The notes below the pieces were generated by a model. That model made no database searches. It was not told the DNA's origin and was given only the letters and a program-made list of their open reading frames with translations. Made by a program: the position numbers and the translations under genes. A DNA stretch of 61,789 bases, counting the filler, from Sanchytrium tribonematis (lineage: Eukaryota): the NCBI GenBank assembly GCA_018985235.1. It is 9 parts of 9 records of this genome, joined end to end, with 100 filler letters (N's around TTAATTAATTAA, not from the genome) between each part and the next. Parts side by side here need not be neighbours in the genome. Positions count along the whole stretch, not along the records: positions 1 to 6,829 come from JADGIG010000492.1; positions 6,930 to 13,759 come from JADGIG010000491.1; positions 13,860 to 20,684 come from JADGIG010000493.1; positions 20,785 to 27,595 come from JADGIG010000494.1; positions 27,696 to 34,498 come from JADGIG010000495.1; positions 34,599 to 41,350 come from JADGIG010000497.1; positions 41,451 to 48,171 come from JADGIG010000498.1; positions 48,272 to 54,986 come from JADGIG010000499.1; 1 more part is not named here. One strand, given 5' to 3'. The number at the start of each line of letters is the position of its first letter. The first letter of the stretch is position 1. Shown piece by piece: positions 2,429 to 61,236 of this stretch.

Positions 2429-5405
2429 TTAAATAGGACTTTTACCATCCCAGCCCCTGGGTTCTCTTTCCATACTAAGCTTATAAAGTTCTTTGTCGAT
2501 GTCTTCTTTCATTAATGGTATGTTTCTAAGAAGTTTTTGTATATCTCCTACTGGAACCAAATTGTACGGTATTTCTTGGCATTTTAGCATAGCACTAATA
2601 ACTCCAGTCTCTAAAACCCTTTTAGTAAAATTAATCATTTTGTCTATCTTATCTGGATTGCCGTCTGCAACGTAAATTAAATCTAATAAATGTACTCCGC
2701 TAAATAAATATAAATTACATATAAGGGATCTTTGCTTCATCTTTGTCTGTATTAGCGTAAAGTAGCGACCTATAATTTCTATATGCATTTTCAGGGCTTA
2801 AAGCTAATTCTAGCTCAGTTTTTCTTTTCTTTGATTTGACTGACACTTCATTCCAGCTATATTTTAAACGGCTTATAGCTGCACTGTTGAGACCTGCAAC
2901 CACCGCCATGCAGCCACTAAAATTCCTTAAATTTAGCAAGCAACTGGCCAACTCTACTAGAAATTCTATTCTATTTGCTCTTCTTTTTAGACTTTTACCC
3001 TCCAAGACAGACTTTGCTGTCCAACTGGCCATTGAATTAAATCTTTCAGTCATAGACCAAACATTGGGTGCCCGCCGTTCTCCATCTGACTTGGCCCAAG
3101 CTTGTCCCAGAAATTCTGTTGGGAGAATGTTCTGAAAAAATTTTGATTCGGTTATGCAAACCTGTCTTGCGATTTCCTCAGGATCATGATGAAATATACT
3201 AGGATTTTGAACGAATTTTTTAGGCAATTTGGGTAATGGTGGTGGTTCGGAGAACTGGTACTGATTGTTGTTCATAGAACCGATTCTCAGAAGACATTTT
3301 CTAATATGTTTTGCAAGTTGAGCTTGTTTATCTGGGACAAGAATATTTTCTGAAAATTCCAAGACATCTTTAATTAGGTAAGCGCCCTTCAGCGGGTCCT
3401 CAAAAGCGGTTTGGTACTGCTTAGTCCATACTTTTAAGACATTTCCGACTCTAAGCTGCACCAAATTTCGAAATTCAATAAAATCTTTTGCAGACTGATT
3501 TTGTTGTCTTGGAACATGATATCTTTCCTTGAGTTTATAGAAAAGGGTTTGGCTGTTAGTAAAACTGTGATATGTTAGTAGAAATGTTTGCAAATAAGCA
3601 TTGTAAAGCTGAAAATCTTTAATTTCTGTTGCTGTCAGCTTCTCAATCAATTTGCTAAGTGTTCCGGCAGCAATATTGCACTCTAATCTATTTAAATCTT
3701 TTTGCTTTATTTCGTCTTTAGTTATTTCTTGAGAAGTAAGACTGTATCTAATGTTGTCGGGCGCATCTTCGCCAGAAAGCCAAACATTTTCATCAGTCAT
3801 TGTCATATAAATTCCATGATATTTATCGTTGACATTAATTCTAATGACCTGGGAAGGTTTAATCTTTATTTGATGAAAATTTTGCTTTCTATCTAGCTCA
3901 TAACTCTTGCCATCTATCCGCAACTCAAAGCTTTTAAAGTTAGATTTTGGGATTCCAAATTTTCTTTCCAGCAAAGATTCAATTTCTTCAAGCTTCTTGC
4001 TCGGGTATATCTCAATTTCCTGAGCAGAATCATCCACACTTAATTGAAATGGTATCAGTCGACTTTGTTCCCTTAAAACAAATTCCTCGGTACTCAAAAC
4101 TTCTTTGATAACTTGCCAAATTGTATTTTGCGCCAAAAGTTTCTCACCACTTTTATTATAAAGCCACAATTCTGGTACATCTGCCCTTGTCAATTCTAAT
4201 TTGCATAAGTTCACAACATCTTGAACAGTTGCTTCTTCCGTAATTAATAAACGATAAGGTTCTCCGTAATCATTAAATATAGTAATTTCTTCAGTCTGAA
4301 GTCTAAGTTCAATTCCACACTGATTAATGTTTTGAGTGAAATCTCCAGCCTTTTCATTGAAACCATAATCACTTAAACATCTTTTGAGATCCATCCAAGT
4401 AGAATTATGAGTTAGAAATATAGAATAATGAGATGAAGGTTTTGGTAATTTTAATGATCTTACTTTCAGATTGTACTGAATGAGTCTGCTAACATCAGCT
4501 CCTGTAAATGTTAATGGCGCTTTCATGACAAATTTGGCATCAAGCACTGGAATAGTCACTCTTACATATAATTGATACCCGTTGAGTCTCAATTCCACTT
4601 TGTCTTCTAAATTAAATTCGTAAGCTCTTAAAGGCTTGTTTTCTTCTAGCCAATAGCCATGTTGTGATGTGCAAAATAAGGTAAAAGGATCTTTCTCGGG
4701 TAATTTAAAATGAGCTTTCACCTTTTCGACAGCTTCTTTTACAGACAATGTAGCATTATAATTAAGTATCATTTCCTTATCATCATTTGCTAAGCTTATT
4801 TTAAGTGTTTCCACAAAGTCTTTTTTCATGATTCTCCATTTTTCATCAACTGAATTTAAATAACTTTCACGTAAGACTTCATCCACAAATTCCATGTGCT
4901 GGAATTCCACTCGCTGTCCATGGTATTTAAGATCAAAATGGTATAAATCGTATAAAAGAGGGTCATTATTTTCTTTAATTTCCAATTGTTCTAAAATACT
5001 GGTAATTGCTTGCTTCGCTGTTATCATTTTAATTGTATGATTGTTAGAAACTTCAAATACACATTTACAAGTTGGCTTGGGCCCGTTATTGACGTAAACA
5101 TCTACTCCGGCGGGATTATATTCAAGGTTTCCATTCCACTCTTCCACTTCGTCTGCCGTCATTTCACTAGCAGTATCAGAGGTTGATTTTGGTTTTCTAT
5201 CTAATATTTTACCAAAAAATTTACCGGTACTACTTTTACCAAATTCATTTATACTTTTCGTATCTCTACTTGGTTTTTTAGGCTTGAAATCATCACTCTC
5301 GTCATCCTTACTCTCGACATAAGTTTGACGCTTTAACATTTTTGATATAGCATCATCTGTTTTCAAAGTAGCGCTAGAATTTCTTCTGGATCTTGGTGCA
5401 TCCAT
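2429..5405 (-). CDS. Ras guanine-nucleotide exchange factor (REM + CDC25 domains; N-terminal ubiquitin/FERM-like repeats); 2 exons 5405-2719 and 2699-2429, 985 aa
   Basis: AGTLSKLIEKL, FLLTYHSF, PEEIARQ, LRNFSGCMAVVAGLNSAAISRLK. Splicing joins KIPYI-GVHLLDLIYVADGNPD...INFTKR, the canonical CDC25 C-terminal motif. Confidence 0.92.
2700..2718 (-). other. 19-nt spliceosomal intron in RasGEF (gtaatttatatttatttag)
   Basis: GT-AG. Removal restores the IPY(I/L)GV motif, and the intron contains the in-frame stop of the upstream ORF. Confidence 0.9.
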
Positions 5406-5599
5406 TTGACGTGATTCAACTCTTTCAAGCCACAAGATTTTTATTTGAGCAGCAGTGCCCTTTTAGTGAATAAGAGAACGGGAGTTGCAATAATGCTCGT
5501 AATGCAAGGGCTATTCTAGCTGTAATGTAATACGTGTAGACGGTGACTTTTAGATTTGAAACTGGATTTATAAAACTAAGGAAAATTATTGTAAGTGCT

Positions 5600-6097
5600 T
5601 TATTTAGCTGGTACTTCTAGAGTTCCAGCACCAATTTGATCACTGAGCTCTTTTGGGGATTGTCCATCAACAGTACATCCAACACTGAAAGCAGTTCCAA
5701 GAATTTCTTTAATACTACCTTTAAGATCTTTGGCATAACTCTTAACTTTCATTTCTCTAGCAATATCAATAATTTTTGCTAATGGAATATCTCCATTGTG
5801 AAGTATATTCTTTTCCTTCTTCTTGTCGCGAGGAGGTTCATTTAAGGCTTTAATTACTAAACTACTTGCACTTGGAAGAACAGAAACCTGAGCTTGTCTG
5901 TTTTGAATTTTTAATTGTACTGTGACTCTAAGTCCTTTCCACTGTTGAGTATTTTTTGCAATATCGTCACCTACTTTCTTTGGTGATAAACCTAAAGGTC
6001 CAATTTTAGGTGCTAGAGCAGATCCACCCGGTACTTCTCCACCAGTAACTCGAAGATTTACATATACAACCTCATTAGGATCAAATTTTGGTGGCAT
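5600..6097 (-). CDS. RPL12: 60S ribosomal protein L12 (uL11)
   Basis: [10 protein letters not shown]...GGEV...[19 protein letters not shown]; full-length and intronless. Confidence 0.98.
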
Positions 6098-6134
6098 TTT
6101 TTATCTTTCTGACAAATCTACGACAATTACAATT

Positions 6135-6152
6135 CACGTGTATTTGACCAAT
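6135..6152. promoter_or_regulatory. E-box (CACGTG) plus CCAAT box upstream of RPL12
   Basis: cacgtg at 6135-6140 and ccaat at 6148-6152, 40-55 nt upstream of the RPL12 ATG. Motif match only. Confidence 0.35.
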
Positions 6153-6423
6153 CAATAATTGTTTTAGGTTTCTCCCTTTTTACTTGGCTTGTATCAACAC
6201 TTTTCCCACAACGATGTCGCTGATTATTAAACTAGTCATTTAAATATCATCTCACGCTAGGAATTGTAGCAGACATCTTTGTAGATGCAATATAATCCCA
6301 CATTCTACTACTAAATTATTGAGTTCTAAAATTAAGTTAATTATCGCTGCTATAGAAAATGATTTGCAAATTTGCTGATTATTGAAAACATCTGCGTCAC
6401 ATTTTACTGACTATGAGCGATTT

Positions 6424-6829: not shown

Positions 6830-6929
6830 NNNNNNNNNNNNNNNNNNNNNNNNNNNNNNNNNNNNNNNNNNNNTTAATTAATTAANNNNNNNNNNNNNNN
6901 NNNNNNNNNNNNNNNNNNNNNNNNNNNNN
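6830..6929. other. Artificial contig spacer N44-TTAATTAATTAA-N44
   Basis: N-runs flanking a 12-mer with stops in all six frames. Confidence 0.98.
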
Positions 6930-6931
6930 TA

Positions 6932-14244: not shown

Positions 14245-15250
14245 ATGAAAAAACGCTACTTTGTACTTCCGGCTTTGGCATTAGCTATTATTTACTATAC
14301 AAAATCAAATCTCAGGCGTTCTTTATTGAGCAATAGCAAGGAATCGAACATATCAAGAAGATACAAGCATTTTCAAATGGATTTACGATTTACGATGGAT
14401 CAAATTTTGGCGCTTCTCGACATCAAAGAAATAGACCTTGACCTCATCCTACAATCATTGTCACAATTTAAAAATTCAGACAAAGTATTAATAGAAGGTG
14501 AATATCGTGATAAGTTAAGTGCTTGGAACTTGTTTAAGTCCAAATGCATTCAAAAATTAATTACGAAATTGTATTGTTCCAGTGCCTTGTGCCTTTTAGT
14601 GAATATCCAAATGAATATATTGGGAAAATACTTATATTTACAAAGCGTAGGGGAGTTAAATAATAGTAAGATTTGCTTTACTTCAAAGTTGTCACAATCA
14701 AAGTTCCTAGAGTTAACAAATTACATCATTGAAGAGGGTTGGAGAAAATTACATGTAGACCTATCTGTGGTGGAATGTGTCGAATTAAATCAGGCACTGA
14801 CATGTAAAGATTTCTCAAAAGTGATTCAATCAGTCCGTGAAAAAATTGAAATTCACGATATCAATGAGAATTTTAAAAATATAATATTGCCAGATCCAGT
14901 ATCCCACATTGACATGTCCGACCATTCTGTCGTTGGCATGGCACGACTCAATTCTGAACTTTACGATGTCGTCGAGAGGTAATTTCTATTTACGAAGTAA
15001 GGACTTCCATCTTGTATTAGCACAGCTTTTCGACATTTCTTTTATGAATTTTGAAACAGAACTGCAAAGTTATTATAAGAGCATTAAAGCGGAGTGTTTG
15101 CCTTTTGCCAAATTATTACCATTTGTTGTAAAAGAATGTAAAATGATAAATCGGCCGCAATCTAAATACTGTCAAAGCCTTGAAGCATCATCACTGCTAA
15201 GTATGCTTAACGCTTCAATTTATACTTCGTTTGAAAATTTCGGCGGATAA
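14245..15250 (+). CDS. PEX3: Peroxin-3; 2 exons 14245-14978 and 14998-15250
   Basis: Basic residues plus TM at the N-terminus, KENISRRY-like segment, KLSAWNLFK, IQMNILGKYLY. Spliced junction DVVE-SKDF; LPFAKLLP; C-terminal ASIYTSF. Confidence 0.88.
14979..14997 (+). other. 19-nt intron in PEX3 (gtaatttctatttacgaag)
   Basis: GT-AG; joins ORFs 14245 and 14909 in frame (DVVES-KDF, matching Pex3 D..ES.DF). Confidence 0.88.
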
Positions 15251-15287: not shown

Positions 15288-18200
15288 ATGTTTCAATCAT
15301 CTTTGCAGAAACTTAACATACATTTGAAGCAAAATTACGAATACCCTTCTCAAAAGCAGCAAATCTTGCAAAGTATCCAGGAGAATCTTTCCAAATCTCC
15401 ACTGTTAATGCTGGATGTACTGGTCAAATATTCGCAAGTAGACAAATTGCCACAGTCTTATGTTGAGACAATTTTGAATTCCGAGCTTCAATTGAAACCA
15501 AATGAGATGCTCATGATGGGGCAACTCATATATCTTAGCGTGAAAACTTGTCTTCAAAATTTTGAAAAAAAAGATATAGATTATTTGCTGCTTTGTATGA
15601 GAAAGCTCTACGCATATTATAAGCAGAGTAATAGCAGCCAGCTGGGGGCGCTCTTTCTGCAGCTCACTCAACCATCCGACTCAAATGAGTCCTTGAAGCA
15701 ATACTATAATGATATATTATTGGTCTTATGCAAATTATCCGTCAAATATTCAGACGAATTACCTCTCTTCTGCATTATGTATTTAGCAAAGCAAAAATAC
15801 TTTAATTACAACGTCTTGTTGCCAATGACTTTAAATTTGAAAAGAAGTAGTAACAATATCATTTCAACGCATTTATTGAGTCACACTATCGAACTGCAGC
15901 CGCTATTCCCGTATCACTTCGAAATTTATTACAAATTGTTTTTAACTAATTTCAATGAGCACTCAATCTCTGTTTTATCAAACTTAGACTGTAAATATTG
16001 GATTGAATGGTACATAAACTACGATTGCAATCCTTTAATGCAAATCAATTTGCTGGAGAAGATCATACTATGGCTCATGAAATGTATCACTAATGGTACA
16101 GAGTTTGAGAAATCCTCTCTTGATCTACAAGAACCGTCCTATCCGACTTCTAATACAAACTTGATGGGTTCTGCACAAATGCGATCTTTTGCTTTAAAAA
16201 GACTAGTTCTAATTTTGCAAAAATGGGTTTCTTGGATGGAACAGCCGGTACCTGTTGAGCATGAAGAACATCCACGTTCCGCGATTACACAAAAGCAATT
16301 TAAGTCCACTTTAGAAGAAGGTATCAAAAAATTTAACATAAAGCCGAAACATGGAATTCAATTTTTGATTCAAAACAATTGTATAGCCTCAAACACAACT
16401 CTTGCAATTGCCAACTTTTTATTTCAAAATGGTCATTCACTTGATAAAACTTCATTGGGAGATTATCTCGGAGAACTTGAATTTCAAGATTTGATGAGAG
16501 CCTTTGTGGATTTGTACGATTTTCGGGATTTGTCCTTTTTATCTGCTTTGAGGTTACTGTTGACCAAATTTCGGTTACCTGGTGAAGCGCAGAAGATTGA
16601 CAGGATCATGCTAAAATTTGCTGAACGCTTTACTTTGATGAATCCTGAAGTATTTGCTAACGCTGATACTGCTTACATTTTGGCTTATAGCGTGATTATG
16701 TTGAACACAGATCTCCATAATCCACAAGTCAAAAATAGGATGACCACTGAAGATTTTATAAAGAATAACAGAGGAATCGACGACAAAAAGGATCTTCCAC
16801 GTGCGCTTTTGGAGTCGATTTACTCCGAGATACGGGATGATGAAATCAAACTCGACCAAAAAGTAAAATTAGTGCAGGCTCAGGGATTTGTCCCAGGACA
16901 GAAGCAAGAAAATGCTATGGAGGATAGTTTAATTGCAATTGAAAAAGAATTTAGAAAACTTGAGAGCAAAGGTAAGAGTGGTCATTTAAAAGACTTTCAA
17001 GAATTGTCGTCTCAAAAGATACCCACAGAACTTCAGAATGAGTCAGCAACACCATCCCCAAGGCAGTCTGTACCCAACTCACCAATGAGTGACATTCAGA
17101 GCGCAGTAGATTTTAAGTATGTTAAAGCTTCACATCCTGATCATATACGAGATATGTTCCAGTTGGTCTGGACAAGTTTGTTGACTGCCTTTTCGCATCC
17201 TTTACAGTACAGTGATTTAGACAATGTTGTAGAGGATGCATTGAATGGATTCATCCAAGCTTGTCATATTGCTTGTAAGTTCAAGTTGAAAACTGAGAAA
17301 GATGCCTTTGTTACCACTTTATCGAAATATACTTTTTTGTCATCATTGAGCGACATCACCTCTAGGAATTCCATGACTGTTATAGCTTTATTGGACATTG
17401 CCGCGAAGGAAGGTGACTATCTAGCCGGAAATTGGCACGTAATTTTATCATGTATCAGTGAACTTGACAGACTCAGAATTTTACCATCCAGTGGAGAATC
17501 ATTATTAAGAAGCGAATCCAATTCTAGCCTGAACGAGCCGAAACGCAAAGACTCCAATCTAATATCGCAGCCCACTTTCATGAGTAGTAGAAAGATTACA
17601 GCTCCGCGAGCACAACGTAATAATATTGAGGACACAAAAATGAGTGAATCCCAAATTCAAGAAATTGTTGTTAAAGTCGATAAAATTTTGAGCGCCTCCT
17701 CAAATTTATCCGGTCCTAGCATTTGTGAGTTTGTTCAATGTATGTGTCAGATCAGTGAGGAAGAGCTGTCAAGCAAGAATCCCCGAATGTTTTGCCTATC
17801 TAAATTAGTTGAAATTAGTTACTATAACATGGAAAGAATACGTGTTGAGTGGACGCAGCTATGGCAAATTCTTGGGCACCATTTTTATAAAGTTGGAATT
17901 CATACAAATCAACAGATTGCTGCATTTGCGGTAGATAGCTTACGCCAATTAAGCATGAAGTTTATGGAAAAAGAAGAATTGCCAAATTTTAAATTTCAAA
18001 GAGAATTTTTGAATCCATTTAGTCAAATCATTGAAGACTCCAATTATGATGAAATTCGAGATTTGGTGTTACGTTGCATTAATCAAATTGTTCAGTCAAA
18101 ATTTCAGGCAATCAAATCTGGCTGGGCTACAATTTGCTCTATACTCTTTCTATCAAGCAAATCTGTAACTGAAAGTGTAGTTTCACTTGGGTTTGATACA

Positions 18201-19545
18201 ATGAAAAGTTTATCTTCTCATTATTTGCTGCTTATAGATAACTCATCATTTTCTGAGTATTTATTAACATTAGCTGAATTTTGTAATTGTAAAGCATTTC
18301 CCAAAATTAGCCTCCAAAGTATTGAACTGCTCCATTCCATCCTCGATCTTTGCAACGCGACTAAATTTGAGGACCAAGAAACAAAAATGTGGCTACCGAT
18401 TCTGATAGCTCTCCAGGAAATTGTATTGAAGTGTGATCTTGAGGTCCGTACTCGTGCTCTGACGTATCTTTTTGATTCACTTAATACTCTAGGTGTAAAT
18501 TTCAATTCCTCTTTTTGGAAAATTATAATGGATGACGTTTTAGGCAATTTATTTAAACTTCTTGATGATAACGACAGCAATACTATAGAGGAAACTAATA
18601 TTTGGCTATCTACTACCATGATCCAGGTGCTTCGTCATTACGTTGAATTTTACTCCAAATATTTTGAAGAATTACAATCTTACTTAAATTACTTTCTAAA
18701 CCTTTTGCAAAAATGCATTCTTCACGGTAGTTTACGCTTATTCAGAAAATGAGACAATTGCAAGACTGGGTACCTCATGTTTGCAGCAATTTGTTGAAAA
18801 TAATTTTCAATTACTCAAGGCAGATTCTTGGGATTTAATTACAAACGGAATTATCACTCTATTTCAAACAACGACTGCAAATCAATTGTTTACATCTTTT
18901 TCGCATCTTTCATATGATATTGAGGATAAATCTCCCATTATATCTCCCGTAGAAGACAATAATCAGGACAATATTTTGTTCCAAAAAGTAATAAGTCAAT
19001 GTGTGTTGCAATTGTTACTAATACATTTAATTGACGACCTTGTCAATAACACTAAGGGTTTGTACGAAACCGTTGATTCCAATTTTCTCATCAAGCTATG
19101 TGACTGCCTGGAGGCGAGTTACGATTTTGCTAATAGATTTAATTGTGACGAAAAATTGAGATTCAATTTATGGAAAGCCGGATTCATGAAGCAAAGGCCC
19201 AATTTACACAAGCAAGAAGCTACTAGCATAATGTGCCTTATTTCCATTTTACTAAAATTAATTACTGCAAATCCGGAATTGGAAAACAGAACCGCAAAGG
19301 TCATAGAGAGATTAATATCGACATATCTAAGTGCAGAATCGAAAGAAGAAAAACGAGGAAAAAATGCAGTCAAACCGGCTATCGAATTGGTATTAGACTA
19401 TTTCACTGTCATGGCGGACGAAATATTTGATCGAATCGGTAAATCAATGTTTCGATCTTTCATTCTAATAGCAAAAATGGAAAATGACGAGATTTTACGC
19501 ATTAAAGTTTGCGATGTATTAGATAGATATTTCATATATTTGTAA
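15288..19545 (+). CDS. SEC7: Large Arf-GEF SEC7/BIG; 2 exons 15288-18726 and 18746-19545
   Basis: FRLPGEAQKIDR, LAYSVIMLNTDLHNPQVK, YYNMERIRVEW, AVDSLRQLSMKF. Spliced junction CILH-ENETIARLGTSCLQ; C-terminal LWKAGFMKQRPNLHKQE. Confidence 0.95.
18727..18745 (+). other. 19-nt intron in SEC7 (gtagtttacgcttattcag)
   Basis: GT-AG; restores the conserved ENET.AR.G.SCLQ motif. Confidence 0.92.
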
Positions 19546-20785: not shown

Positions 20786-21932
20786 ATCGAAGAAGAGCTA
20801 AATAATCAAATCCAGGAGTGTAAATTTGACTACATTGCAGAAAATATCTCACTTGGGTCGCCTCTAGCTTTGGGCAGATTAAAAAGCGAGCCAATTTCAA
20901 TTCAGGCCAATTCTGACTTTAATTTTATAGGATGTAAAAATGGAGATTTGTGGATATATGGTAGAAATTTTAAATCTTTAATTCAATTTGGCTCTATAAT
21001 ACACATAGGATTATCTCCGAATGGTAAGTTTTTGGCTATTAGTTGTCAAAAAAATATTTTTCTGTATTATATTAACAATTACACCTGTACTCACACAGGT
21101 CCCAAGCTCAAGTATATAGAAAGTTCTCTAATACTAAGGCTTCTTAAAAAACTTACTGGCCATCGAAAATTGGTCACATTTTTAAAATTTGATTCAGATA
21201 ACGCCACACTATATTCTGTTTCTAATGAACGATGCCTGAAAGTGTGGAACGTACGATATTCTGATGCAACCCAAGTGAACGATTCTGGATATATGGATAC
21301 ACTATTTGGTCATCAGGATATAATTACTGGATTATCATTACTGGTGGAAAACAAGCCCATCACAATTGGCAACAGAGACAAGACTTGCAGAATATTCAAC
21401 ACTATTCAAAGCACTCAATTGATTTATAGATTACCTCATGAATCTGACAGTTGTACTTCATTAACCGTTATCAATTTAAAACACTTTATCGTAGGAACAG
21501 CTGCGGGACACTTAATGCTATTTAATATCCAAAAGAAGAAACCGATTTACACTTTAAAAACAGCTCATGGATTTGTTTCAAAGAAAACCTTGTGTGGGAA
21601 AATTGATATTGCAAATCCAGTGATGAATCTTTGCAGTCAAATCAATACTGATTTAGTTGCCTCTAGTTCCGGGACTGAAATGATTATTTGGAAATGTGAC
21701 ATAAATGTGCCTATCATTTTTCAGGTAAAGAAACTAATCTTTGTATTTTTATTTTATTTAGGGTGCTTTGGTTACTAGCGTATTTTTAAACGATTGCCAA
21801 CTTGGCATAGGTACAGGTATAAATCAGAAAGATGGGAGATTCCCCAAAGATTCCTCGTTGCTCAAAACAGAAAAATTTTCTTTGTGCAGAAATTCGGTTT
21901 TTATTTACAAATTCAAATGCAACTCGGAATAA
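20786..21932 (+). CDS. RRP9: U3 snoRNP WD40 protein RRP9/U3-55K (5' partial); exons ..21742 and 21762-21932
   Basis: GYMDTLFGHQD, GNRDKTCRIF, STQLIYR, KKKPIY. Spliced exon 2 GALVTSVF...GIGTGINQKDGRF...RNSVFIY matches the RRP9 terminal blade (G.V.SL...G.G.E.R.GRW). Confidence 0.85.
21743..21761 (+). other. 19-nt intron in RRP9 (gtatttttattttatttag)
   Basis: GT-AG; opens a 56-codon terminal exon with RRP9-like sequence. Confidence 0.85.
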
Positions 21933-21936: not shown

Positions 21937-24046
21937 TTAGATAAATTTGTTCTCCAAAAGCCAGTCTTGAGCATCTGTAAATTCTTTTGCAAGCGAGTCA
22001 TCAACCAAATTTTCTTTATGGAGACATTTCACGAGTACGACCACCTAGATAAGTAATAATTACATGTTGCCAAAATTCAAAAGCCCTTTTAACTTCTTTT
22101 TCGACATCTTTGCAGACAGTTTCAAATAGAATTTGTAAATCAGTCAAATCTTTCAAAATCAAATAATTCGTTAATAACACTCCCATAGTACAATTGAAGT
22201 CTCTGCTAAAAAGAAGCTTTGGCACAATATTTGCAACACCCTGCACCTCAATTTCCTCGGTGCAAATCGTATGCACCAAAATTGCCTCATTCCATTGGCG
22301 AATCGATTTTGAAAACAACTTCACAATACTATTAAACATCAGAATATTCCTGTCTAAAGGGGCACTCCAGGTAGAATCCTTGGCTCGTAGATTAATCAGA
22401 CTACAAACTCTAGATACAAGGTTGATAAATTGCTGATTTGATTCTTTAACTTGTGGTTTTGTTGGATATACCTCCTTGAAATTAGAGCTGTTCAGATGCC
22501 CGAACCTCAAAAGTTCAGAGGCGATAAGTAAGCCCTCTTCCATTTCAAAAGACAAATGTGAAAGGGCTTTTTTCAAGCACTTACCAAGTGGGGTTATCTC
22601 GTTTAAGCGTTCTGTATATCCAAGTACATTCAACAATCTTAGATTGACATTATGAAAAAGGTCAGACACTGTTGCGATTTTAAGTCGTTTCTGAACCCCG
22701 GAAAAAGTGACCCGCAAGTGACTCGTTGCCTTCTCAAATTCAAATAATGTCTTGTTTAAACCTAAAAGAGTAATTATGGCGTTTTTAGTCTTCAAAAATG
22801 GATGGGCATGACCGTTACTATCCTGGGACTTGATTGTGTAGGGAACTTTGGCGTCGTACCAAAAATATAAACTTGACGGGCGAGTTTTAATGAACTGCTT
22901 TAATACATCGAACACAAACCCGCGATTGGCATGAACCAGAGAGAGAATTTTTCTATAATTTTCACCGCCATTGCAAAGTGGTGGTGACTCAAGAACTATT
23001 CCTGATAGCAATTGAAAAATCAGATGTGGATTAATAAGGCTGTTGGCCATACAATAGTAAATACCATTACTCAATCTCGGTCCAAATATGTCGGCAACAT
23101 TTTTAGGAAGCTCAGCTCCATTGTTTGGATCTAGAATTATATTTACGGGAACTATAGCACCCTCTCTGGTATAGACAGGATTAAAATACCAAAAAACGTA
23201 ATAGCGAATAAACAGTTGCAAATAGTTGCTTAAATTTTGTTGGCTGCTCTGTATAGCCATGTCAATAGCTGTATAGCCATTTCCGCTCATTAAAATTTGA
23301 TTGATCGAATTCTCGAAAACATTAAAGTGGTGAGACGCCTGCCTTTGATCTGGTATAATAGGTGGAAATGTCGGAGAGTCAATTCCACAAAGCAAACAAG
23401 TGTCTAGCATTTGCTCAGATCCAAGACCAATTTTTTTTAATACAGCATCTCTGTAGACCCAATGAAATTCCTTGTTACTAAATTCAGTTATCCATTTATC
23501 AATGTTGTAACAAATAATTTCGTTAGAAGCTAATATAGCATGGACAGTTTTGGATTCTTTTAAATACACTAATTGAGGTATTGCAGCAAATGGAGCTCGA
23601 AAGGCAATAATATTTTTTGAAATAAGATAGTTAACCACATAAGATGCCAATTCAGGAAGCGAGAATGATTTAGAAGATTCAAAAGAGTATTGTGCCGCAT
23701 TGATTTCTCCTCCAAAATATTGTTCCCAGCCTTGATTTCTCATGTTAGAAGAATCATCCGGAGTGCTGTAAGGTAGTTCAGTTCGCAGAACAGGCAAGGA
23801 CGGAAAAACGAATATAGGCTGAATACTCAGTGATTCATAAAATGCAATCTCCTTGTCAATTTGCTGCAATAATTGTCCTGGTACAACTTTGCCCAAAGCA
23901 ATATGAAAAGGGTCTTTGAGGCTCAAAAGGCGTCTAAGCCAAAAAGTTCCATCAATCCCGAGTCTTATCCCACGAAGTTGATAGACCGAATCTTTGTTAA
24001 TGAGTGCAGACCGCTTTAAAAAGTATTCTAAACCTCGTACTCCCAT
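21937..24046 (-). CDS. MKT1: MKT1 (XPG/FEN1-like post-transcriptional regulator); exons 24046-22064 and 22044-21937
   Basis: MGVRGLE, RLGIDGTFWL, FRAPFAAIPQL, WSAPLDRNILMFNS. Spliced C-terminus AFEFWQH-VVVLVK...EFTDAQDWLLENKFI fits the Mkt1 C-terminal F..A..WL pattern. Confidence 0.85.
22045..22063 (-). other. 19-nt intron in MKT1 (gtaattattacttatctag)
   Basis: GT-AG with the same consensus; gives a Mkt1-like C-terminal helix. Confidence 0.82.
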
Positions 24047-26280: not shown

Positions 26281-27499
26281 ATGTCTGGGACTCAAATTTA
26301 CAAAATATTCTTCACGGTAAGTTCTTCCGCATCAATCTCGTGGCTTTTGATTTCAAATACGCCATTCAAGCATTACTTTGAGGGAAACGAGGTTATTTAT
26401 GATTATATGCTCTACACAGAACAAATGACAACCAGATTGGCTGGTTTTGACATTGAAGCACCTAAATTAATAGGACTTGAGCCAGAGTTGAATATTTTGC
26501 AAAACAATTTAAAAAATTCTTCTCGGTTCCAGGATTCTTTGAAAAATTTTAATGAAAAATTCAAGTTGATGAAGTTGCACAGCCGAGGGGATAAACAATA
26601 TATCCGCAAACTCGAGGCCGATCTCTCAGGTGAGACCAAAAAATATGAGAACGACCTTATGGAATTGCGGCACAATCTGGAAGAAGCGCATAGGGAATCC
26701 AATTTAAAAATTATTACAGAAAAAGAAAAGCAATTGAAGTCTCAGTATGAAAAGCTTTTGAGTGCTCAGAACCAACACCTGAAAGACCAATTTAAAAGAG
26801 AAGTATCTGAATTAGTTGAAACAGAAAGAGAAGGTAAATTACAGAAATTGAACAATTTGGAAGAAGAATTGACTGAATTGAAATATGCAACTATAAAAGT
26901 TCAAGAGGAAAACTCAAGAATGAAAAATAGTGTCGATCTTTACAACTCAATAATTTTATTGAAAAATAGGATGGCAAAAGAAAATACAAGTATTGATTTG
27001 AATACGCCTGGCGATCCATTCATAAATTCAATAATTGCTCATATGCCAAAGTACGTTCGGTCTGAAAACGAAATTCAAGCCAAATTTATCAACATGTATC
27101 CGCAACTTCTAAAAACATCTTTATTGAATTCAAACGAATCATTATTGAATAAAGCGACCAATTTCATTAATGGCTGGACAGGCTGGAGTTTGTCAAATGA
27201 GCAAGAAAAATATCCTAGAATGACATTTTGGAGATATTTTACCACCAGTGTTCTTAGTAAGTTTGTATTCCCTTGGCAAACGAAGCTGGATGAATTGCTA
27301 CTGAAAGTTAAGCAGCGGAATTTTAAAGATAGTGCCACATTATGTTCAGATCTACCATTCTGGCCCAAGAAGTTGTTGTCGGAGTGGCACCGAGATGTTG
27401 CTGATCACGAAAAAGTAAAAGAATTAATTTTGGTACTGGAAACTAACTAAGGTTCTTGAGAGGTATACTTTGTCACAGTTATCAACACAGAATGAATAA
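26281..27499 (+). CDS. MIC60: MICOS subunit MIC60/mitofilin; exons 26281-27432 and 27452-27499
   Basis: N-terminal TM followed by FKHYF, long coiled coil with VETEREGKL, and mitofilin-domain end LPFWPKKLLSEW. Confidence 0.75.
27433..27451 (+). other. 19-nt intron in MIC60 (gtactggaaactaactaag)
   Basis: GT-AG with a perfect ACTAAC branch site at the consensus position and an in-frame TAA. Splicing extends the terminal helix (ELIL-VLERYTLSQLSTQNE*). Confidence 0.75.
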
Positions 27500-32031: not shown

Positions 32032-32447
32032 ATTGCTTCAATAAATATCAGAACATTTATATCAGATACGTGACATAACACAAGAAAACTCGAAATTAAT
32101 ATTCCACCTATTAATTTAATAGCAGAATTCTTGCGTAATAGCTTTTTGTTGTGTCATCACCACGGAGATTGAGGTTCTAATTTGCTTTTTGACTCGATAA
32201 AAGGCTAAAAGTCATTTGATTAAGATTGCCTGTTGCTATATTAAAATTTAATTCCCCGGCACCGTTTTTTGGTTTTATAGACGCGATTCTTGAAACAACA
32301 ATTGGCGAAACCAAATTCTCATATTTAAGGACCAATCAACATTTTGTGTGACTGTAAGCGGATCTTCGTTGGAGATTGTCAATTAACTTAAGATAGTCAC
32401 ATGCTTTTACAAAGGGTATAAGTTTGCGATGAACCTGGCCAACTATA

Positions 32448-32893: not shown

Positions 32894-34498
32894 ATGCTTC
32901 AAATTAATACTTCGGCTACGTTTGCTTTTATAGGAGAAAGCCAATTAGCATGTGGAACTGTAGCGGGTGCATTGGACGAGAACTTTGACTCAACTAGTCA
33001 GTTAAAAATTTATTCGACCAAGGACAAGAGCGTGGCCCAAACTTGGCAGGTCAATTCTAAATTCAACTCTCTTTGCTATTCGCCCGTCAAAGGTGGTGTC
33101 ATCATAGGTGGACTAGAAAATGGTGAGGTTCAATTATTCGTACAAAACAAAGCTGAACCTGTATTTGCAAAACAAGCTGCAAGTGGATCTATTAAAGGTC
33201 TTGACACTAATCGTATTCAACCCAATTTATTTGCAACAGCTAGTCGCGGAGAAGATTTAAATATATGGGATGTTAATAATTTATCTACTCCATATTCACC
33301 TGGCAATAGAACACCAAAATTAAGTGGAAGAGAAATACTCAATTTGAAATGGAACAATAGTATTCCTCATATATTGGCTAGCAGTGCTGATAATGGATAT
33401 ACTGTCATTTGGGATCTGAAAAACAAACGAGAAGTCATTAGTTTGCAACTTCCAGGTGGTGTCAATCAAGGTGGTGTTATTGGAGAATGGCATCCCTCAA
33501 TTGCCACACAAATTATGACTGCCTCTAACAGAGATGATAATCCAATAATCATGAATTGGGATTTAAGAAATGCCCAGCAACCATTGTATACTGTCCAAGG
33601 ACATCAAAAAGGCATTTTGAGCATGTCTTGGAATGCTAAAGATCCTGACTTGCTAATTACAAGTGCTAAAGATCTAAGAACAATTATTTGGGATTTGAGC
33701 ACAAAAGAAGCAGTCGGTGAATTGGAACACTCATCAAAATGGGTCTTTCAAGTCCAGTGGCATCCATTAAAGCCATGGTTGTTTGGTACGGCAAATTATG
33801 ATGGAAAATTACAGGTGCAAAATTTAGATGGAGATGATGAGCATGTTGGATCCACTCCAAATATTAATGATTCTGATGACCCATTTCATAATCTAGCTGC
33901 AAATGAACCAGCAACAGCTTCAGGAATTGCACTTAGAAGAGCACCTCAATGGTTTAGAATCCCAGTTTGTGGGGCTTTTGGAAATAATAATCAATTTATT
34001 CACGTCGCCAGCAAATTTACAATTTACAACGAAATTCCTTTTGATTTTATCAAAGAAGCATCTGACGAAGCTTATATCAAACTTTGCAAAGAAAGAATCG
34101 ACAACCATTTCATTTGGTACGTGTTAGAATCTTTGGGTGAAAATGGCCGACAAATTTTGGTTAATGCTTTAAACAGTGGATTGGCTACACCTGATTTTGA
34201 TTACAAAGAATCAGATGTCCAGGATACACCACTTGAAGTACCAGCTGTGAAAGTTAGTAACAAAAATGGTACAAGTGATCTGACTTTGCAAAACTTTTTG
34301 CTTAGTGGGCAATTTCACAATGCCTGTAGACACGCAATTGATCAAAATGATTTTACCACAGCACTCACAATCGCGGGTTTGGGAAGTAACGATCTGTACA
34401 AGTCTGTTAGATTGCTCTACCTCCAATCTCTTGATTCTCAAGGTCTTAATAGCAATGAATTTTTGTTATATTGCATTAAAATAAGGTTGTAAATGTAG
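32894..34498 (+). CDS. SEC31: COPII coat protein SEC31, N-terminal part (3' partial)
   Basis: GTVAGALDENF, WD40 repeats, IWDLKNKREV, RAPQWFRIPV. The stop at 34492 probably lies in an intron (gtaaatgtag...) cut by the spacer. Confidence 0.92.
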
Positions 34499-34598: not shown

Positions 34599-34599
34599 A

Positions 34600-35116
34600 G
34601 AATGTTTACTAACATTAAGATACTTTCTCAATGGTAAACCTGTTAAAGATATTATTTCCATTCATTTGAATGACGAATTTTTTGATAGGCGTGTTGTATA
34701 TCGTCTTTATAGTGAAATAAGAAATCATATTGAACACTTCACACAACTAGCCTTTAAATCATTTGGTGGACCTGGATGTGTAGTAGAAATTGTTGGTGAA
34801 ATGATGCTCCGCAAACGCAAATACAACCTATTTAAAAGCCATTATTGTGGAATTTATCCCTGGTCCTATTAATAACACACCTGCTACTGGTGAACGGTTT
34901 GATTTGTTTGAACATTATGAGCTTATAATGAGCCTGGTAAGACAGGGAATATGTTTCAGGGGATCCGGATTTGTTGTAAATGACAACAATGCTACTATTG
35001 TAGAAGGTGCCACACCTTCAGATGACTTGCTAAATGAGATAGAAGATGCTTTGATAGAACGGGATGAGAGTATTGAAGATTCAGAGACAGATACAGCATC
35101 ATTAATCAGAATATAA
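34600..35116 (+). mobile_element. Degenerate Merlin/IS1595 (ISXO2-like) DDE transposase relic
   Basis: FGGPGCVVEIVGEMMLRKRKYN matches the Merlin/ISXO2 motif GGPG.IVEIDE....RKYN with the catalytic Asp lost. The rest of the DDE domain is missing and the frame breaks near 34850-34870. Confidence 0.75.
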
Positions 35117-36123: not shown

Positions 36124-36670
36124 TCTAAGATATTTTTCGATAGGACTTTCTTGACTTGATTTCTTTTATAATCTGGGTTCCTTGTGGGCTTACTTCAGCA
36201 AAACTTCGGTGATCCCACACTTACTGGCAACAGCATTGGCGGTTATCGAATTATCTCCAGTGCACATTATTACCTCAATCCTCATCATCTCTAGTCCTTC
36301 AACAGTTTCCTTCGCAAATGGCTTTAGTTCGTCACCAACGCTCACGCATCCAGCTAGCTTATTATTTAGCTCAACAAATATGACAGTATGGCCCAACATA
36401 GACTCATCTTCGAAAAAACTTTGCAATAAGCTGTCATCAATTCCCAACTTTTTCATTAATTTTGCATTACCAACTAAAACCTCAAAATGTTCACCGTGAT
36501 GATCAGAAAAAGCTGCATCTGCTTTTTTAGATTTTGTAGGGGAATTCAGAGGACATCTTGTCGTTTTGTATATGGTGGGCATGACAAAGGATCGCTCTAT
36601 GTGTCTAACGCAATCATAATCTATAAATTGAACTTATGCATCACAGCTACCAACAATTGCAGAGAACAAG
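36124..36670 (-). pseudogene. P1B (Cu-transporting, CCC2/ATP7-like) ATPase fragment
   Basis: VLVGNAKLM, GHTVIFV, GDELKPFAKETV, MCTGDNSITANAVA. A 1-nt deletion breaks GITEV-FAEVSPQG, and there are stops up- and downstream. Confidence 0.8.
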
Positions 36671-48271: not shown

Positions 48272-48272
48272 T

Positions 48273-48437
48273 TTTATTTTTGGATACGAGGTGGAATCTA
48301 CTAAAACGGAATACTTTTTTCGATTAGATGTCAACACGCCTGTAGAAACTATCATGGAAAGCAAAATAATTACTTTTCCAAAAATATTTTTCGTACATAT
48401 AAATGTAGATGATTTTAATGTAGAGACTTTATGTTGA
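48273..48437 (+). CDS. C-terminal gene fragment (5' partial)
   Basis: Hand translation FIFGYEVESTKTEYFFRLDVNTPVETIMESKIITFPKIFFVHINVDDFNVETLC*. Confidence 0.4.
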   Translation, partial: FIFGYEVESTKTEYFFRLDVNTPVETIMESKIITFPKIFFVHINVDDFNVETLC

Positions 48438-48597
48438 AGGAAACAGGGTTCAAAAAAGTGAAAAATTTATTCAAATTCCTCCCATTTTAAAGTTTTTAGA
48501 ATTCCGAGATGACTATCATCTGAAAGGTGTATTTTGTCATTCAGGCTCGGCAGATTCTGGGCATTATTGGTTTGAAGTTTTCTCAAATAATCATTGG

Positions 48598-48981
48598 CTA
48601 AAATGCAATGATTCTGATGGCTTCCTCCAATCCCAGATTCACAGCATAAGGTCCTTCGCGAACTAATTTGGCATCATCATATAAAGCATCATTAGGACTA
48701 AGCTCACAAGAGATATTGTTGTGAGCTGCTCGGATATGCCTACTTAAGTTGTATCGATGTTTGTATTGCAACCCACATGCTCTGCATTCATAGTTTTTAA
48801 CCGAAAAGTGGCTTTTTAGATGTGTCTTAAGCCTATAACGGTTAGTTGTAACGTAATTACACCCCAGCCAGTTGCAACTGGGCTTCTTATCTTTCTGATT
48901 CGTATGGGCTCTTATGGCGTGCAGAAATAGGTCTTCTTCTGAAAGGGATTCGTAGCAACAATTTTGCCACTGACAGTGCAT
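48598..48981 (-). CDS. Three-finger C2H2 zinc-finger transcription factor (PacC/GLI-type tandem CWCH2)
   Basis: CQWQNC..H..H, CNWLGC..H..H, CRAC..H..H. Confidence 0.85.
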   Translation of the reverse strand: MHCQWQNCCYESLSEEDLFLHAIRAHTNQKDKKPSCNWLGCNYVTTNRYRLKTHLKSHFSVKNYECRACGLQYKHRYNLSRHIRAAHNNISCELSPNDALYDDAKLVREGPYAVNLGLEEAIRIIAF

Positions 48982-49183: not shown

Positions 49184-51977
49184 TCAACCGGTATTTCCCA
49201 TTCCGCTGGCAATTCCTTGAATTGTAATAATCATGGCATCGTTTGTAACGTTGTCAATAATGGATTCACCGCGTAGCTTTTTAAGTAAACCAACCTGCAT
49301 CGCATTCAATGGATCGACAAAACCTAGTCTAGAATCTATCATTCTCTTTGTGACCAATTCCTTTTCAAGCAGAACCTTTTGATCGGCAACTTTTAAAATC
49401 AATTCTTCGCAATTTCTTAATTCCTTTCTAAATCGTACCCCATACTCCAAATGGCCAGGCGCCAATGTATCGTAAAGTTCAGAAATTGGTAGTGATGCCT
49501 TGGCCAGGACCATTTGAACTAAGTCTATTGTTGTTCTAAAAAACGGCCAATGCTGATGCATTTCTCGTAACAAATTGAAATTCCCTGAGTCGATTTCAGT
49601 CTGTATGGAAGGGGCGATACCAAGCCAAACAGGTAATTGTAATCGAGATTGGGTAAAACTGAAAACCCAAGGAATTGCTCTTAATGATTCAATTGTAAAT
49701 GCTTTCTTTCTCTTTGAGGGTCGAGAGCCAATATTCAAGTTGGCAATCTCATGAAAAGGAGTTGCTCCTTGTAAATAATTGACAAATTCAGCATCCTTGT
49801 GCACAATGTTGCGAAAATGGGAGCAAGAAATTTCACTCATACGATCCATAGCTTCTGTCCATTCTTTTTTCACTGGAGTAGATTTTCTCAAAGAGTGAAG
49901 TAGGACTGCCGAGGCGTATCGTTCTAGAGATTGTTCTGCTGTTGGAATGGTTCCAAAATGATTGTCGATAATCTCTCCTTGAATTGTAACTCTAATATTT
50001 CCCCTCACAGAACCAGGAGGCTGAGACAAAATAGCTGAATGCTGACTAAGTTAGCAATAAATACGAGCCACCACCTCGAGCAACACTTCCACCTCTTCCA
50101 TGGAACATATTAACTTTGATGCCATATTTATCGCCAGTCTCAACGAGCCTAACTTGACATTTGTATAATTCCCATCCAGAAGTTAATTTTCCAGCATCTT
50201 TTGCACTATCAGAGTATCCCAACATGACTTCAATATGATTTCCATCATATAGCACATATTTTTGAATATCTTTTGGCAATTGCAATATTTCGTTAACAGT
50301 TCTGTCCGAATTTTCCAAGTCTCTGCGTGTTTCGAACAAAGGAACTGTTCGCAATGTTAATTTCACATTACAGGCTTTTTGCAACAAGGCCACTTCTAAC
50401 ACATCGGATGCACTGGTGGCCATGCTAATGACATACGCCCCAAAACACTCCGATTGAGATTCGGCAGCAATCATTTTGAAGGTTGCTATGACTTCTTTAG
50501 CTTCTTCCGAGACTGAATTGTCATCTTGTGGCCAGCTATCAGGAAACAATGGTCTTCTTGAGACTAGGTTTGAGGCAAGCCATTTAACCTTTTCAGATTC
50601 AGTCCATTCATTATAATATTTCCCATTGATGTTTTCATCCAAATATCTGGTGACAAAATCTATTGCATCCGAATGTCTTGTGCTCTCTTGTCTGATGTCT
50701 AATTTGACTAAAGAAATTCCAAATGCAGCCAACCGACGCAATGTATTCCGTAATCGACCATTCGCAATTATATGGTGACCACATTCTACTAGGGAATTGT
50801 AGATTGCCTTTAAGGGCTCAAAAATTTCTTCAGCTTTAGTAATGATAAATTTTGGGGGAATTGGGGCTGGCTCATTAACCTTTGAATGCTCGTCATATAT
50901 ATTATTTATATTGCTCCTCTCCATAACGCAGTCAGCATAAAATAGCTCAGTTTGTTTTAATCTCTCTCGTAGGTCTGACAATAAAATTCGGTATGGCTCA
51001 TCGTTCGGAATTACACCTTTTGGAAATACTAAATGTAAACTTTTTCCAGAAGATATGTGATCTATGGTGGAAAGGTTGTCTAGTCTTTTTTTAAAGGACG
51101 AACTGCATTCCGTCAAAGAGATTTCAAAAAGCAATCGATCAATCTCCTCGTAGTAAAGATGCGCAGCTCTCCACTTTGAAATAAATAAAACTCGCTTTGT
51201 CACTTCAGCTGTAGCAAAAGGATTACCATCTCGGTCTCCCGCTGTCCATGACCCAAATTCAAATAAGCTTTTAGTCTCTGGAAGCGCTGGAAGTCCATTT
51301 TGAATTAAAACGTCGTCTAATTCTTTCATATGATCTGGTAAAGCATTCCAAAGAACACTTTCTACGACATTTAGACCGTATCGAGCCTCATCTTCAACGG
51401 AAGGCTTGTTTCTGCGAACTGTGTTGCTTCCCCATGCTGAAATCACTTCTCTTTCTATGTCTTCATTCAAAGCTCTCTTTTCAAATGGTGTTAAGATGTT
51501 GGTATCCCTTTTTAGTAACAATTTAGCAATCTCGGAATATTTGTCAAGCATAGTGCGTCGGGAAGCTTGGGTCGGATGACTAGTGATGGTCAATGAGACC
51601 TTTTGATTTAAAAGCATTTGATAAATATCATTTTTTCCAATTCCCTCGAAAATCAGAGCATCAATGGCATCTTTCATAGTATGCTTGAATACAATATCAT
51701 TTTTACCTCTCTTGTACCCTCTCCATCTGCAAATTCGCAAATGCCTTTCTGCCACTTCTGCCAAAACTAAATACTCGTGAAATAGCCGAGCACCTTTTAC
51801 AACTTCTTCGATTGGCAAGTCTCTTACGATTTTTAGAGTATCTTCGAATTTAGCCTCATTTTTGCTGCTCAGACTAATCAAGTCTTGAAATTCTGATGGC
51901 GCTAATTTTACAAGAATTCCTGCAAATCGCTCAATCTCATGCTGAAGAGGCTTGATGAAATCTATCGAGTCTTCCAT
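49184..51977 (-). CDS. ppc: Phosphoenolpyruvate carboxylase (PEPC); exons 51977-50065 and 50045-49184, 924 aa
   Basis: ITSHPTQ, GSWTAGDRDGNP, VMLGYSDSAKDAG, FHGRGGSVARGGG, LRAIPWVF, C-terminal GIASGMGNTG. Confidence 0.97.
50046..50064 (-). other. 19-nt intron in PEPC (gtatttattgctaacttag)
   Basis: GT-AG with GCTAAC branch site; restores ARGGGS-QHSAILSQPPGS (canonical GRGGGP.H.AILSQPP). Confidence 0.93.
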
Positions 51978-54984: not shown

Positions 54985-54986
54985 TG

Positions 54987-57226: not shown

Positions 57227-57384
57227 GTCAAAATCTGAATAAATTCTTTTGGTTTAACCGTTTTTGTCATTCAATCACATGCGCGATGATTCCAAACGTA
57301 TTGTTTGATGGTTTGGGAAAATGTGATTCACACGCCCTCACCGTGATGCTATAAGAAGCTCGAAATACCAATATTTTATACGAA

Positions 57385-58584: not shown

Positions 58585-58613
58585 CTTATAAAATACAATA
58601 AAATAGTTTAATT

Positions 58614-59945: not shown

Positions 59946-59983
59946 GACAATTATGACCTTAGAAAAAATTGAATTTACTGAAA

Positions 59984-61236
59984 TTAAGATATGGCCAAAC
60001 AGCTTAGCAAAAGCTTTCCTCTCTCAGTATTTAATGGCGAGACTATACTCTTAATTTCTTGCTTTTGCTTATTTTGTAAGAATAGCTGAAAAAAGGGATT
60101 GGCAAGAGATTCCAATAGAATGAATACCATAACATCTTTCCATAAAGTGTCCTTTAGCCGAATTGAATTTTGAAGGCTGTATTTGAAAAACTCGTAATTG
60201 AGTTCGGTATTTTTGCTTTCAAAATGTTTAAAAAGCTGTAAAATATTGCTAGTTGTAAATACTAAGCTACATGAGCAATCAATCACTTTTTTTGCAAAGC
60301 TTTCTTCACTTTGTGCGTGCCATACGACTCGTCGCTATTCAAAATTACTTTAATTGATAGTGTCGAATTGTTTTTTCGTATAATATGCTTATAAATTAAG
60401 TCACTTTGCTCCCTGCTTAGTTCGATTTTGCCCTTTGAAAGATATTTACTAAGAGCTGACTCAAAAACTTGAATAAACATGTTGTCTTTGTGTTGGTTGC
60501 TTAAAGATAAGGCTTGTCTTAATGATGTATCAAAAGTTGATTCATCCAGTCCCTGGCACATCAAACTCATCACAAATTCGAGATTCCTTGGAAGTCCGAG
60601 AATCAAGTTGCTAAAACATTTTAGAACTTTCAAATTGTCTGCTGCAAGAAGGCTAGAAAATAATTGTTTTAGTTGTTCCTTAATACATAAATGTTCGATC
60701 CAATATTGTGTCAATTCGGAACAATGGATATTTATGAATTTTCTCATCTTTTCATTATTCAAAATATTGTAAACTGTTGTCAATTCACCGCTTCTAAGTA
60801 TTTCCTCATAAATAATAATCCAATGTCTGAGGAACGTAGGTGTATTGATATCAATAAGGTCATTCAATGCGAAATTCAAAATTAGATTAGCTGATGATTT
60901 CTGGTATACATCTAAAAAAGGATACAAATCATACTGCTTGTAATGATTGATGATATTTGTGATTTCGGCACTTGAAAATTCAAGAAAAATTTGTGGAAAT
61001 TTATGTAAAATAAATTGAAAAACCAGTGGTTTGTTTACAGCTGATACTAGTAACTTGGTTGTTTTGATTTTTCTCTCTTCATCCATGTCTTCAAGGACTT
61101 TCTGCAAAACTTTTACTTGTTCATCAGCCTTGTATGAATGAAATTCATGTTGGACTACTTGATATAGAGTATTAATCCTCTTCTCACTAAAGTTAGGAAT
61201 AAATTCTAAAAATTCTTGAATAATTGTAGAATTCAT
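59984..61236 (-). CDS. Hypothetical helical-repeat protein; probably 2 exons 61236-60287 and 60266-59984
   Basis: Two abutting ORFs of similar composition are joined in frame by a 20-nt GT-AG intron. Confidence 0.6.
60267..60286 (-). other. Putative 20-nt intron (gtgattgattgctcatgtag)
   Basis: GT-AG with T at +5 and CTCAT branch A at -6, as in the 19-nt set. A homopolymer error in the adjacent A7 run is an alternative. Confidence 0.6.

What the first reader, a model, noticed from the sequence alone, without database searches (positions are those of the whole stretch)
2429..61236. Every intron lies in the last third of its gene (reverse of the usual 5' bias)
Seen: intron positions as a fraction of CDS are RasGEF 91%, PEX3 74%, SEC7 81%, RRP9 at least 85%, MKT1 95%, MIC60 96%, PEPC 69% and the 20-nt case 77%, with only one intron per gene. 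Genes whose 5' ends I can check (RPL12, SSU72, KTI12, DIM1, HSP104, SEC31, MKT1) start normally without an intron. If positions were uniform, 8 of 8 in the last third has probability (1/3)^8. Established: intron-poor genomes such as budding yeast and microsporidia keep 5'-proximal introns, explained by 3'-biased reverse-transcript recombination. Inference: a different loss mechanism or selection operates here, for example the 3'-most intron being retained through coupling to 3'-end formation or export.
Basis: partly seen in the sequence, partly recalled or inferred. Interest (0 to 1): 0.75.

Follow-up and report, generated by a model that had tools for sequence, protein, structure and literature searches.

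The report
19-base introns kept near gene ends
In this reduced fungal parasite of algae, the few predicted introns are 19 bases long and sit late in their genes, the reverse of yeasts, likely because old upstream introns were erased first.

Summary
Largely confirmed. The window is nine joined contigs of a sanchytrid fungus. Removing them repairs the reading frame; six are backed by homologues, Pfam or motif, while MIC60 rests on sequence alone. The 20-nt case is unresolved. A position-blind motif scan added one more 19-nt intron, in a ubiquitin protease, 243 nt before its stop. None of 40 gene starts hides a rule-fitting coding intron. The SEC31 'counter-example' is an inverted assembly chimera. 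For six whole genes, mean position is 0.84 (two-sided P 0.002; 0.02 if the first third were invisible). The SEC7 and RasGEF sites are shared with distant fungi, so these are shrunken old introns. Three relatives' proteins also break only late. The '3'-most intron kept' idea fails for SEC7, where basidiomycetes have four later introns. 'One per gene' is chance. Best guess: mRNA-templated loss biased to upstream introns; selection through exon-junction surveillance is the rival. A ciliate (Fabrea) shows the same bias; I found no fungal report. There is no RNA and no whole genome, so n is small.

The parts
2700..2718 (-). 19-nt intron, RasGEF, phase 2, 0.91 of CDS, 271 nt to stop
   Evidence: same break in relative P0362; chytrid partial models P0507 and P0372 end at this site
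14979..14997 (+). 19-nt intron, PEX3, phase 2, 0.74
18727..18745 (+). 19-nt intron, SEC7, phase 1, 0.81; site shared with basidiomycete-like loci and one chytrid-like locus
21743..21761 (+). 19-nt intron, RRP9-like WD40 gene (5' end cut by contig), phase 0, at least 0.85
   Evidence: no Pfam hit for exon 2
22045..22063 (-). 19-nt intron, MKT1, phase 0, 0.95
27433..27451 (+). 19-nt intron, MIC60, phase 0, 0.96; motif and frame only, weakest of the seven
48405..48423 (+).
   Evidence: position-blind motif scan; exon 2 Pfam UCH 163-233 of 254, E 1.7e-9
50046..50064 (-). 19-nt intron, PEP carboxylase, phase 2, 0.69
60267..60286 (-). possible 20-nt intron in an unidentified gene, 0.77; unresolved
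34479..34498 (+). inverted chimeric contig end that creates the SEC31 stop and the false GT at 34489; not an intron
   Evidence: the deep record (depth 207) leaves the window at 34478, and the window's last bases match the opposite strand of that record at its positions 416-444; the window's own path has depth 11.7

Best explanation
These are predicted spliceosomal introns, likely old ones shrunk to 19 bases, and they sit late in genes likely because mRNA-templated loss removed upstream and middle introns faster than late ones. Shown: fixed length, shared branch geometry, frame repair, late position, and old sites for SEC7 and RasGEF. Inferred: the U2 spliceosome removes them, using an A six bases from the end as branch point. 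Inferred: about 98% of ancestral introns were lost (0.14-0.16 per kb here against 7.6 per kb reconstructed for the fungal ancestor in PMC8476143), with loss falling toward the 3' end. Inferred, least certain: the template was the transcript still held at its gene, or an internally primed cDNA. Upstream introns are already spliced in such a template, while late introns tend to be spliced after release, so copying it back (for example by polymerase zeta) erases upstream introns and spares late ones.
For: Old sites. The RasGEF break is shared with P0362, P0376 and two chytrid partial models. The window's SEC7 lacks 8 upstream and 4 downstream basidiomycete sites. Leftover-like behaviour. Only 6 or 7 of 36 whole genes have an intron. 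In PEPC, three sanchytrid-clade sequences break at three different sites at 0.68-0.71 and a fourth has none. 6 of 8 19-nt introns lie within 300 nt of the stop, where 25% of coding bases lie (P 0.004, threshold post hoc). The Amoeboradix annotation lists Prp8, REV3 and reverse-transcriptase-like ORFs (PMC8371127 supplement 4). Pol zeta can delete whole introns from spliced RNA (PMC12065846, passages). A terminal intron is mostly spliced after release in a human reporter (PMC4210818, passages).
Against: No RNA and no genome-wide count; n is 6 whole genes plus 2 cut ones from 9 contigs. Nothing tested here separates a mutational bias from selection. Two introns are 800 and 862 nt from the stop, far for a release-timing effect. 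The Amoeboradix annotation lists RNase H1 and H2, which restrict RNA-templated repair in yeast (PMC12065846 introduction). SEC7 lost four later sites too, if they were present in its ancestor. No cited paper links RNA-templated repair to a 5' loss bias; that link is my inference. The window's own PEPC site was not seen in any distant sequence, so gain or sliding is open there.
Confidence: 0.45

Rival explanations
1. Loss was position-neutral, but selection kept late introns. A late exon junction would mark any upstream premature stop for decay, or would help 3'-end formation and export.
For: The Amoeboradix annotation lists Mago, UPF1, UPF2, CBP20/80, U2AF35/65 and U1-70K. Budding yeasts, which are 5'-biased, have simplified or lost the exon junction complex (PMC6351623, start of abstract in listing). 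Three of four PEPC sequences keep a late intron at different sites. Synergy of terminal-intron splicing with 3'-end formation is a stated model (PMC4210818 introduction).
Against: About 80% of whole genes have no intron and one PEPC has none. SEC7 kept a site with four basidiomycete sites behind it. One-per-gene is not above chance (P 0.54).
Confidence: 0.27
2. The bias is overstated by small numbers or by what can be seen without RNA. 5'-UTR or in-frame introns are missed, and the genome-wide pattern is weaker or has peaks at both ends.
For: n is 6-9 and the pattern was chosen after looking. Untestable UTR-type motifs exist at +608 (17 nt) and +32396 (19 nt, GTC start). Retention at both gene ends is known (PMC532390; Entodinium in PMC13685798).
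Against: 0 of 13 possible upstream-exon joins at 40 gene starts fit the branch rule. The strict motif has 8 hits at 19 nt and 3 over seven other lengths, none at 18 or 21 nt and none in a 5' region. One-sided P stays 0.011 with the first third blind. The blind scan's one new intron is also late. Relatives' PEPC and RasGEF frames run unbroken for 630-890 codons.
Confidence: 0.2
3. The introns are new gains that insert or survive preferentially late in genes.
For: Three different PEPC sites lie within 93 nt in close relatives, and two of them were not seen in distant sequences.
Against: SEC7 and RasGEF sites are shared with distant fungi. The Amoeboradix PEPC site is shared with a 39% identical sequence P0196. 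The introns share only the splice motif.
Confidence: 0.08

Closest known systems
Fabrea salina (heterotrich ciliate) intron landscape, PMC13685798 and PMC9004412 (passages)
   Same: Streamlined genome, tiny fixed-length introns, most genes intronless, 3' enrichment attributed to preferential loss of 5' introns.
   Different: Free-living ciliate with 15-nt in-frame introns and 5,156 introns in all. Here a parasitic fungus with 19-nt frameshifting introns. The passages I read give no molecular mechanism.
Stentor and Blepharisma 15-16 nt introns (PMC9505925, PMC13685798; passages)
   Same: GTA start, AT-rich, branch A with a 5-nt tail, that is six bases from the end.
   Different: Shorter, and 5'-biased in Stentor.
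Chlorarachniophyte nucleomorph 18-21 nt and mikrocytid 16-17 nt introns (as described in PMC10245619, passages)
   Same: Narrow size class in a reduced genome.
   Different: Not fungi. Nucleomorphs are intron-rich. No 3' bias is stated in the passages read.
Intron-poor fungi: Saccharomycotina and Microsporidia (PMC8476143, PMC532390; passages)
   Same: Low intron density after massive loss from an intron-rich ancestor.
   Different: They keep introns near the start codon and lose them at the 3' end or mid-gene. Here none is seen in the first two thirds of 36 whole genes.

Membership tests
U2-type spliceosomal intron | GT...AG ends | tested here: met
   8 of 8 19-nt introns
U2-type spliceosomal intron | Branch-point adenosine in a conserved motif near the 3' end | tested here: met
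   A at -6 and T at -8 in 8 of 8; its use as branch point is inferred
U2-type spliceosomal intron | Removal restores a conserved protein | tested here: met
   SEC7, RasGEF and PEPC by homologues; MKT1, PEX3 and USP by Pfam on the second exon; RRP9 and MIC60 not independently shown
U2-type spliceosomal intron | Spliced junction in RNA | not testable with these tools
   no RNA holder listed
U2-type spliceosomal intron | Spliceosome encoded in the genome | tested here: inconclusive
   no whole genome and no snRNA in the window; Prp8, U1-70K and U2AF are listed for the relative Amoeboradix
Tiny fixed-length introns (heterotrich, nucleomorph, mikrocytid type) | Length under about 25 nt in a narrow class | tested here: met
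   8 strict motif hits at 19 nt against 3 over seven other lengths
Yeast/microsporidia-type intron-poor genome | Coding introns concentrated near the start codon | tested here: not met
   window only
Fabrea-type 3'-enriched genome | Genome-wide 3' enrichment through loss of 5' introns | tested here: inconclusive
   met in the window and in four relatives' genes; genome-wide count not possible
Introner-type gained introns | Near-identical sequences at lineage-specific sites | tested here: not met
   sequences differ outside the motif; two sites are shared with distant fungi

The most novel reading that the evidence does not exclude
Sanchytrids as a whole carry an overlooked class of 19-nt introns, the shortest found for any fungus in my searches, with a genome-wide inversion of the fungal 5' rule. 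The inversion records intron erasure by the nascent transcript in cis rather than by poly(A)-primed cDNA, giving a natural read-out of RNA-templated repair over evolutionary time.
Probability: 0.3. Interest if true: 0.85.

Novelty: new variant of a known kind. Interest (0 to 1): 0.66.

Why it matters
The 5' bias of intron-poor genomes is the main argument for poly(A)-primed reverse-transcript loss. A fungus with the opposite bias, with old intron sites that can be mapped against intron-rich fungi, would test that model directly and cheaply. It would be a second, independent case beside Fabrea. There is also a practical point. Published sanchytrid proteins were called by TransDecoder on genomic contigs (PMC8371127 methods passage), and the collection's copies of this window's PEPC, SEC7 and RasGEF are the unspliced, truncated frames (643, 1154 and 896 aa). 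Roughly a sixth of genes may therefore lack their C-terminus in current proteomes.

Tried and rejected
No whole genome is held. No RNA holder listed; this is no evidence on expression. A sanchytrid PEPC profile found no loci in metagenome or viral contigs. Two SEC7 searches showed no close sanchytrid orthologue, whole or in pieces, among the 120 hits listed in each, so intron sites in relatives' SEC7 are unknown. None of 120 short SEC7 fragments ends at the window's site; this weak sign of novelty was overturned by the DNA scan. In-frame 'introns' called by my aligner in loop regions (for example 15 nt at -4864, 39-48 nt near -50927) were rejected: close relatives encode those residues. Loss of the cap-binding complex as a cause was rejected, since both subunits are listed for Amoeboradix (the supplement is cut when stored, and two files were too large to read). 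The atlas gave no hit at 0.9 or above for the gene at -61236. Rfam gave nothing. Earlier scan notes held nothing on this genome or on sanchytrids. KTI12's frame was mis-set in the first 5' scan and redone. Searches that found no report of sanchytrid nuclear introns or of a 3' bias in fungi. These cover open-licence text only, and the search cannot take the prime sign.
Full report
Setting. The window is nine separate contigs of 6.7-6.8 kb joined by N runs with a stop-codon linker, GC 30-39%, gene-dense. SEC7 hits Blastocladiomycota and chytrids first. PEPC is 70% identical to Amoeboradix gromovi and to an unnamed ENA protein, and forms a 100/100 clade with them and a fourth sequence. So the organism is a sanchytrid or close kin. 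No whole genome and no RNA run were available.

The introns. The SEC7 junction aligns without a gap to 5 of 5 homologues, and the RasGEF junction to four blastoclad orthologues. A spliced aligner that sees only a foreign protein called the same 19-nt intron as the sole frame-breaking one in RasGEF (4 of 4 alignments spanning the site), SEC7 (5 of 5) and PEPC (3 of 3). It also called in-frame gaps in loops, which I rejected. MKT1 and PEX3 second exons continue their Pfam models weakly. RRP9 and MIC60 rest on motif and frame. All share GTA, T at -8 and A at -6, the same branch-to-end distance as Stentor's introns (PMC9505925, passages). The eighth, 20-nt case fits the branch rule but starts GTG after an A8 run, has alternatives and lies in an unidentified gene. 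I leave it open.

Were early introns missed? A strict motif rule run on both strands without regard to genes gave 8 hits at 19 nt and 3 over seven other lengths. The rule was built from the seven, so only the eighth hit is a test. It proved to be a further intron, in a 5'-cut ubiquitin protease, 243 nt before the stop. Filling the rest of the Pfam domain would put it at about 0.66 or later. At 40 gene starts, 13 GT..AG stretches of 16-24 nt could join an upstream ATG in frame, and none obeys the branch rule. Two UTR-type motifs (+608, +32396) cannot be tested; loose-rule hits are as common antisense. The SEC31 candidate is an artefact. In run X1 the deep record leaves the window at 34478, and the window's last bases match the opposite strand of that record about 400 nt on, across a 9-nt shared stretch; the window's path has depth 11.7 against 207. 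By hand, the 59 letters known there are stop-free only in SEC31's frame.

Chance. Six whole genes give mean position 0.844, one-sided P 0.001, two-sided 0.002, KS 0.002. With the first third declared invisible, one-sided P is 0.011. Dropping MKT1 and MIC60 and adding RRP9 gives 0.004. In 36 whole genes (43.5 kb coding) there is no intron in about 29 kb of first two thirds and 6 or 7 in 14.5 kb of last thirds. One intron per gene is what a Poisson model gives (P 0.54). The direction was noticed after looking, so these values flatter the claim somewhat.

Relatives. Proteins called without intron models end where an intron breaks the frame. Amoeboradix PEPC breaks at 0.68, ENA protein P0122 at 0.71, the window at 0.69, each at a different codon; P0124 is unbroken. 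These breaks are read from protein ends, not DNA, and later introns would be hidden. An ENA RasGEF, 80% identical, runs 890 codons and breaks at the window's site. So in four relatives' genes no break lies in the first two thirds.

Old or new? By rule 44 have a 45-123 nt intron at the window's exact site and phase, 67 have none and 4 are unclear; 2 of the 4 were resolved as intron by alignment. By best hit among 40 named proteins, the carriers are basidiomycete-like plus one chytrid-like locus, L085. I mapped 25 of the 115 loci in full. Three basidiomycete-like loci have 13 introns over window residues 441-1411: eight before the shared site and four after it. All 13 such loci have at least two after it, and one later site recurs in two ascomycete-like loci. 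For RasGEF, partial models of the chytrids Blyttiomyces and Borealophlyctis and the unnamed P0376 end at the window's site; a partial model can also end at a contig edge. The Amoeboradix PEPC site recurs in a 39% identical sequence. The window's own PEPC site was not seen elsewhere. PEX3, RRP9, MKT1, MIC60 and USP sites were not tested.

Mechanism. Density here is 0.14-0.16 per kb, against 1.30 in Allomyces and 7.6 in the reconstructed fungal ancestor (PMC8476143, passages). The survivors are old where tested, are not the last ones, are absent from most genes and differ between relatives. That reads best as leftovers of a loss process that weakened toward the 3' end. An exponential fit gives k about 6, interval 2-13. 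I commit, at 0.45, to mRNA-templated loss from a template in which upstream introns are spliced and late ones are not. Support is indirect: Pol zeta-dependent whole-intron deletion (PMC12065846, passages), post-release splicing of a terminal intron (PMC4210818, passages), internal priming as raised in PMC532390 (passages), and REV3 in the Amoeboradix table. Selection through exon-junction surveillance or 3'-end coupling is the main rival (0.27), since Mago, UPF1, UPF2, U2AF and the cap-binding complex are listed too. The surveillance rule for stops upstream of the last junction is recalled, not from a call. I put the chance that a 3' bias holds genome-wide at about 0.8.

What is known. Fungi lose introns preferentially at 3' ends and keep first introns near the start. 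Fabrea salina shows extreme 3' enrichment with loss of 5' introns (PMC13685798, passages), so the pattern is not new to biology. Tiny introns are known from heterotrichs, nucleomorphs, mikrocytids and myxozoans (PMC10245619, passages; PMC13644364, first third of the text). The sanchytrid genome paper and PMC10459994 mention introns only in a reference title; the former's main supplementary PDF and one spreadsheet could not be read and may bear on this. Five searches found no report of sanchytrid nuclear introns or a fungal 3' bias. PMC2586383 (passages) gave background only.

Verdict. A real feature with a modest sample: a new variant of known kinds, combining 19-nt introns and a reversed position bias in a fungus. 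Interest 0.66.

Noticed in passing
window 6830-6929 and seven further spacers: The window is nine unrelated contigs of near-equal length joined by a stop-codon linker, so neighbours across spacers mean nothing.
   Followed up: yes
window 49184-51977 (-): PEP carboxylase occurs in sanchytrids, chytrids, a monoblepharid and an aphelid, which suggests vertical descent in early fungi; deep branches are unresolved.
   Followed up: partly
P0122, P0124/P0241, P0362: Unnamed ENA metagenome proteins represent at least two further sanchytrid-clade lineages (59-80% identity), on contigs of 11-37 kb.
   Followed up: partly
window 48424-48666 (+) and 48598-48981 (-): The spliced protease frame and a zinc-finger gene overlap by 69 nt at their 3' ends.
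   Followed up: no
window 15288-19545 (+) and 2429-5405 (-): SEC7 (1412 aa) lacks Pfam hits for the N-terminal DCB and HUS domains seen in 1700-2000 aa homologues, and RasGEF is 170-400 aa shorter than blastoclad orthologues. The gaps to the upstream genes (38 and 195 nt) leave no room for exons of that size.
   Followed up: partly
window 34599-35116 (+) and 36190-36633 (-): Broken frames resembling an ISXO2/Merlin-type transposase (recalled motif, no Pfam hit) and a fragment of a P-type ATPase (Pfam Hydrolase hit).
   Followed up: no
window 27696-29815 (-) and 34204-34478: Run X1 shows divergent second copies or alleles over the subtilase gene and part of SEC31.
   Followed up: no
window 608-624 (+), 32396-32414 (+): Intron-like motifs upstream of the ABC1 and cyclin-like starts; possible 5'-UTR introns or chance.
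   Followed up: partly
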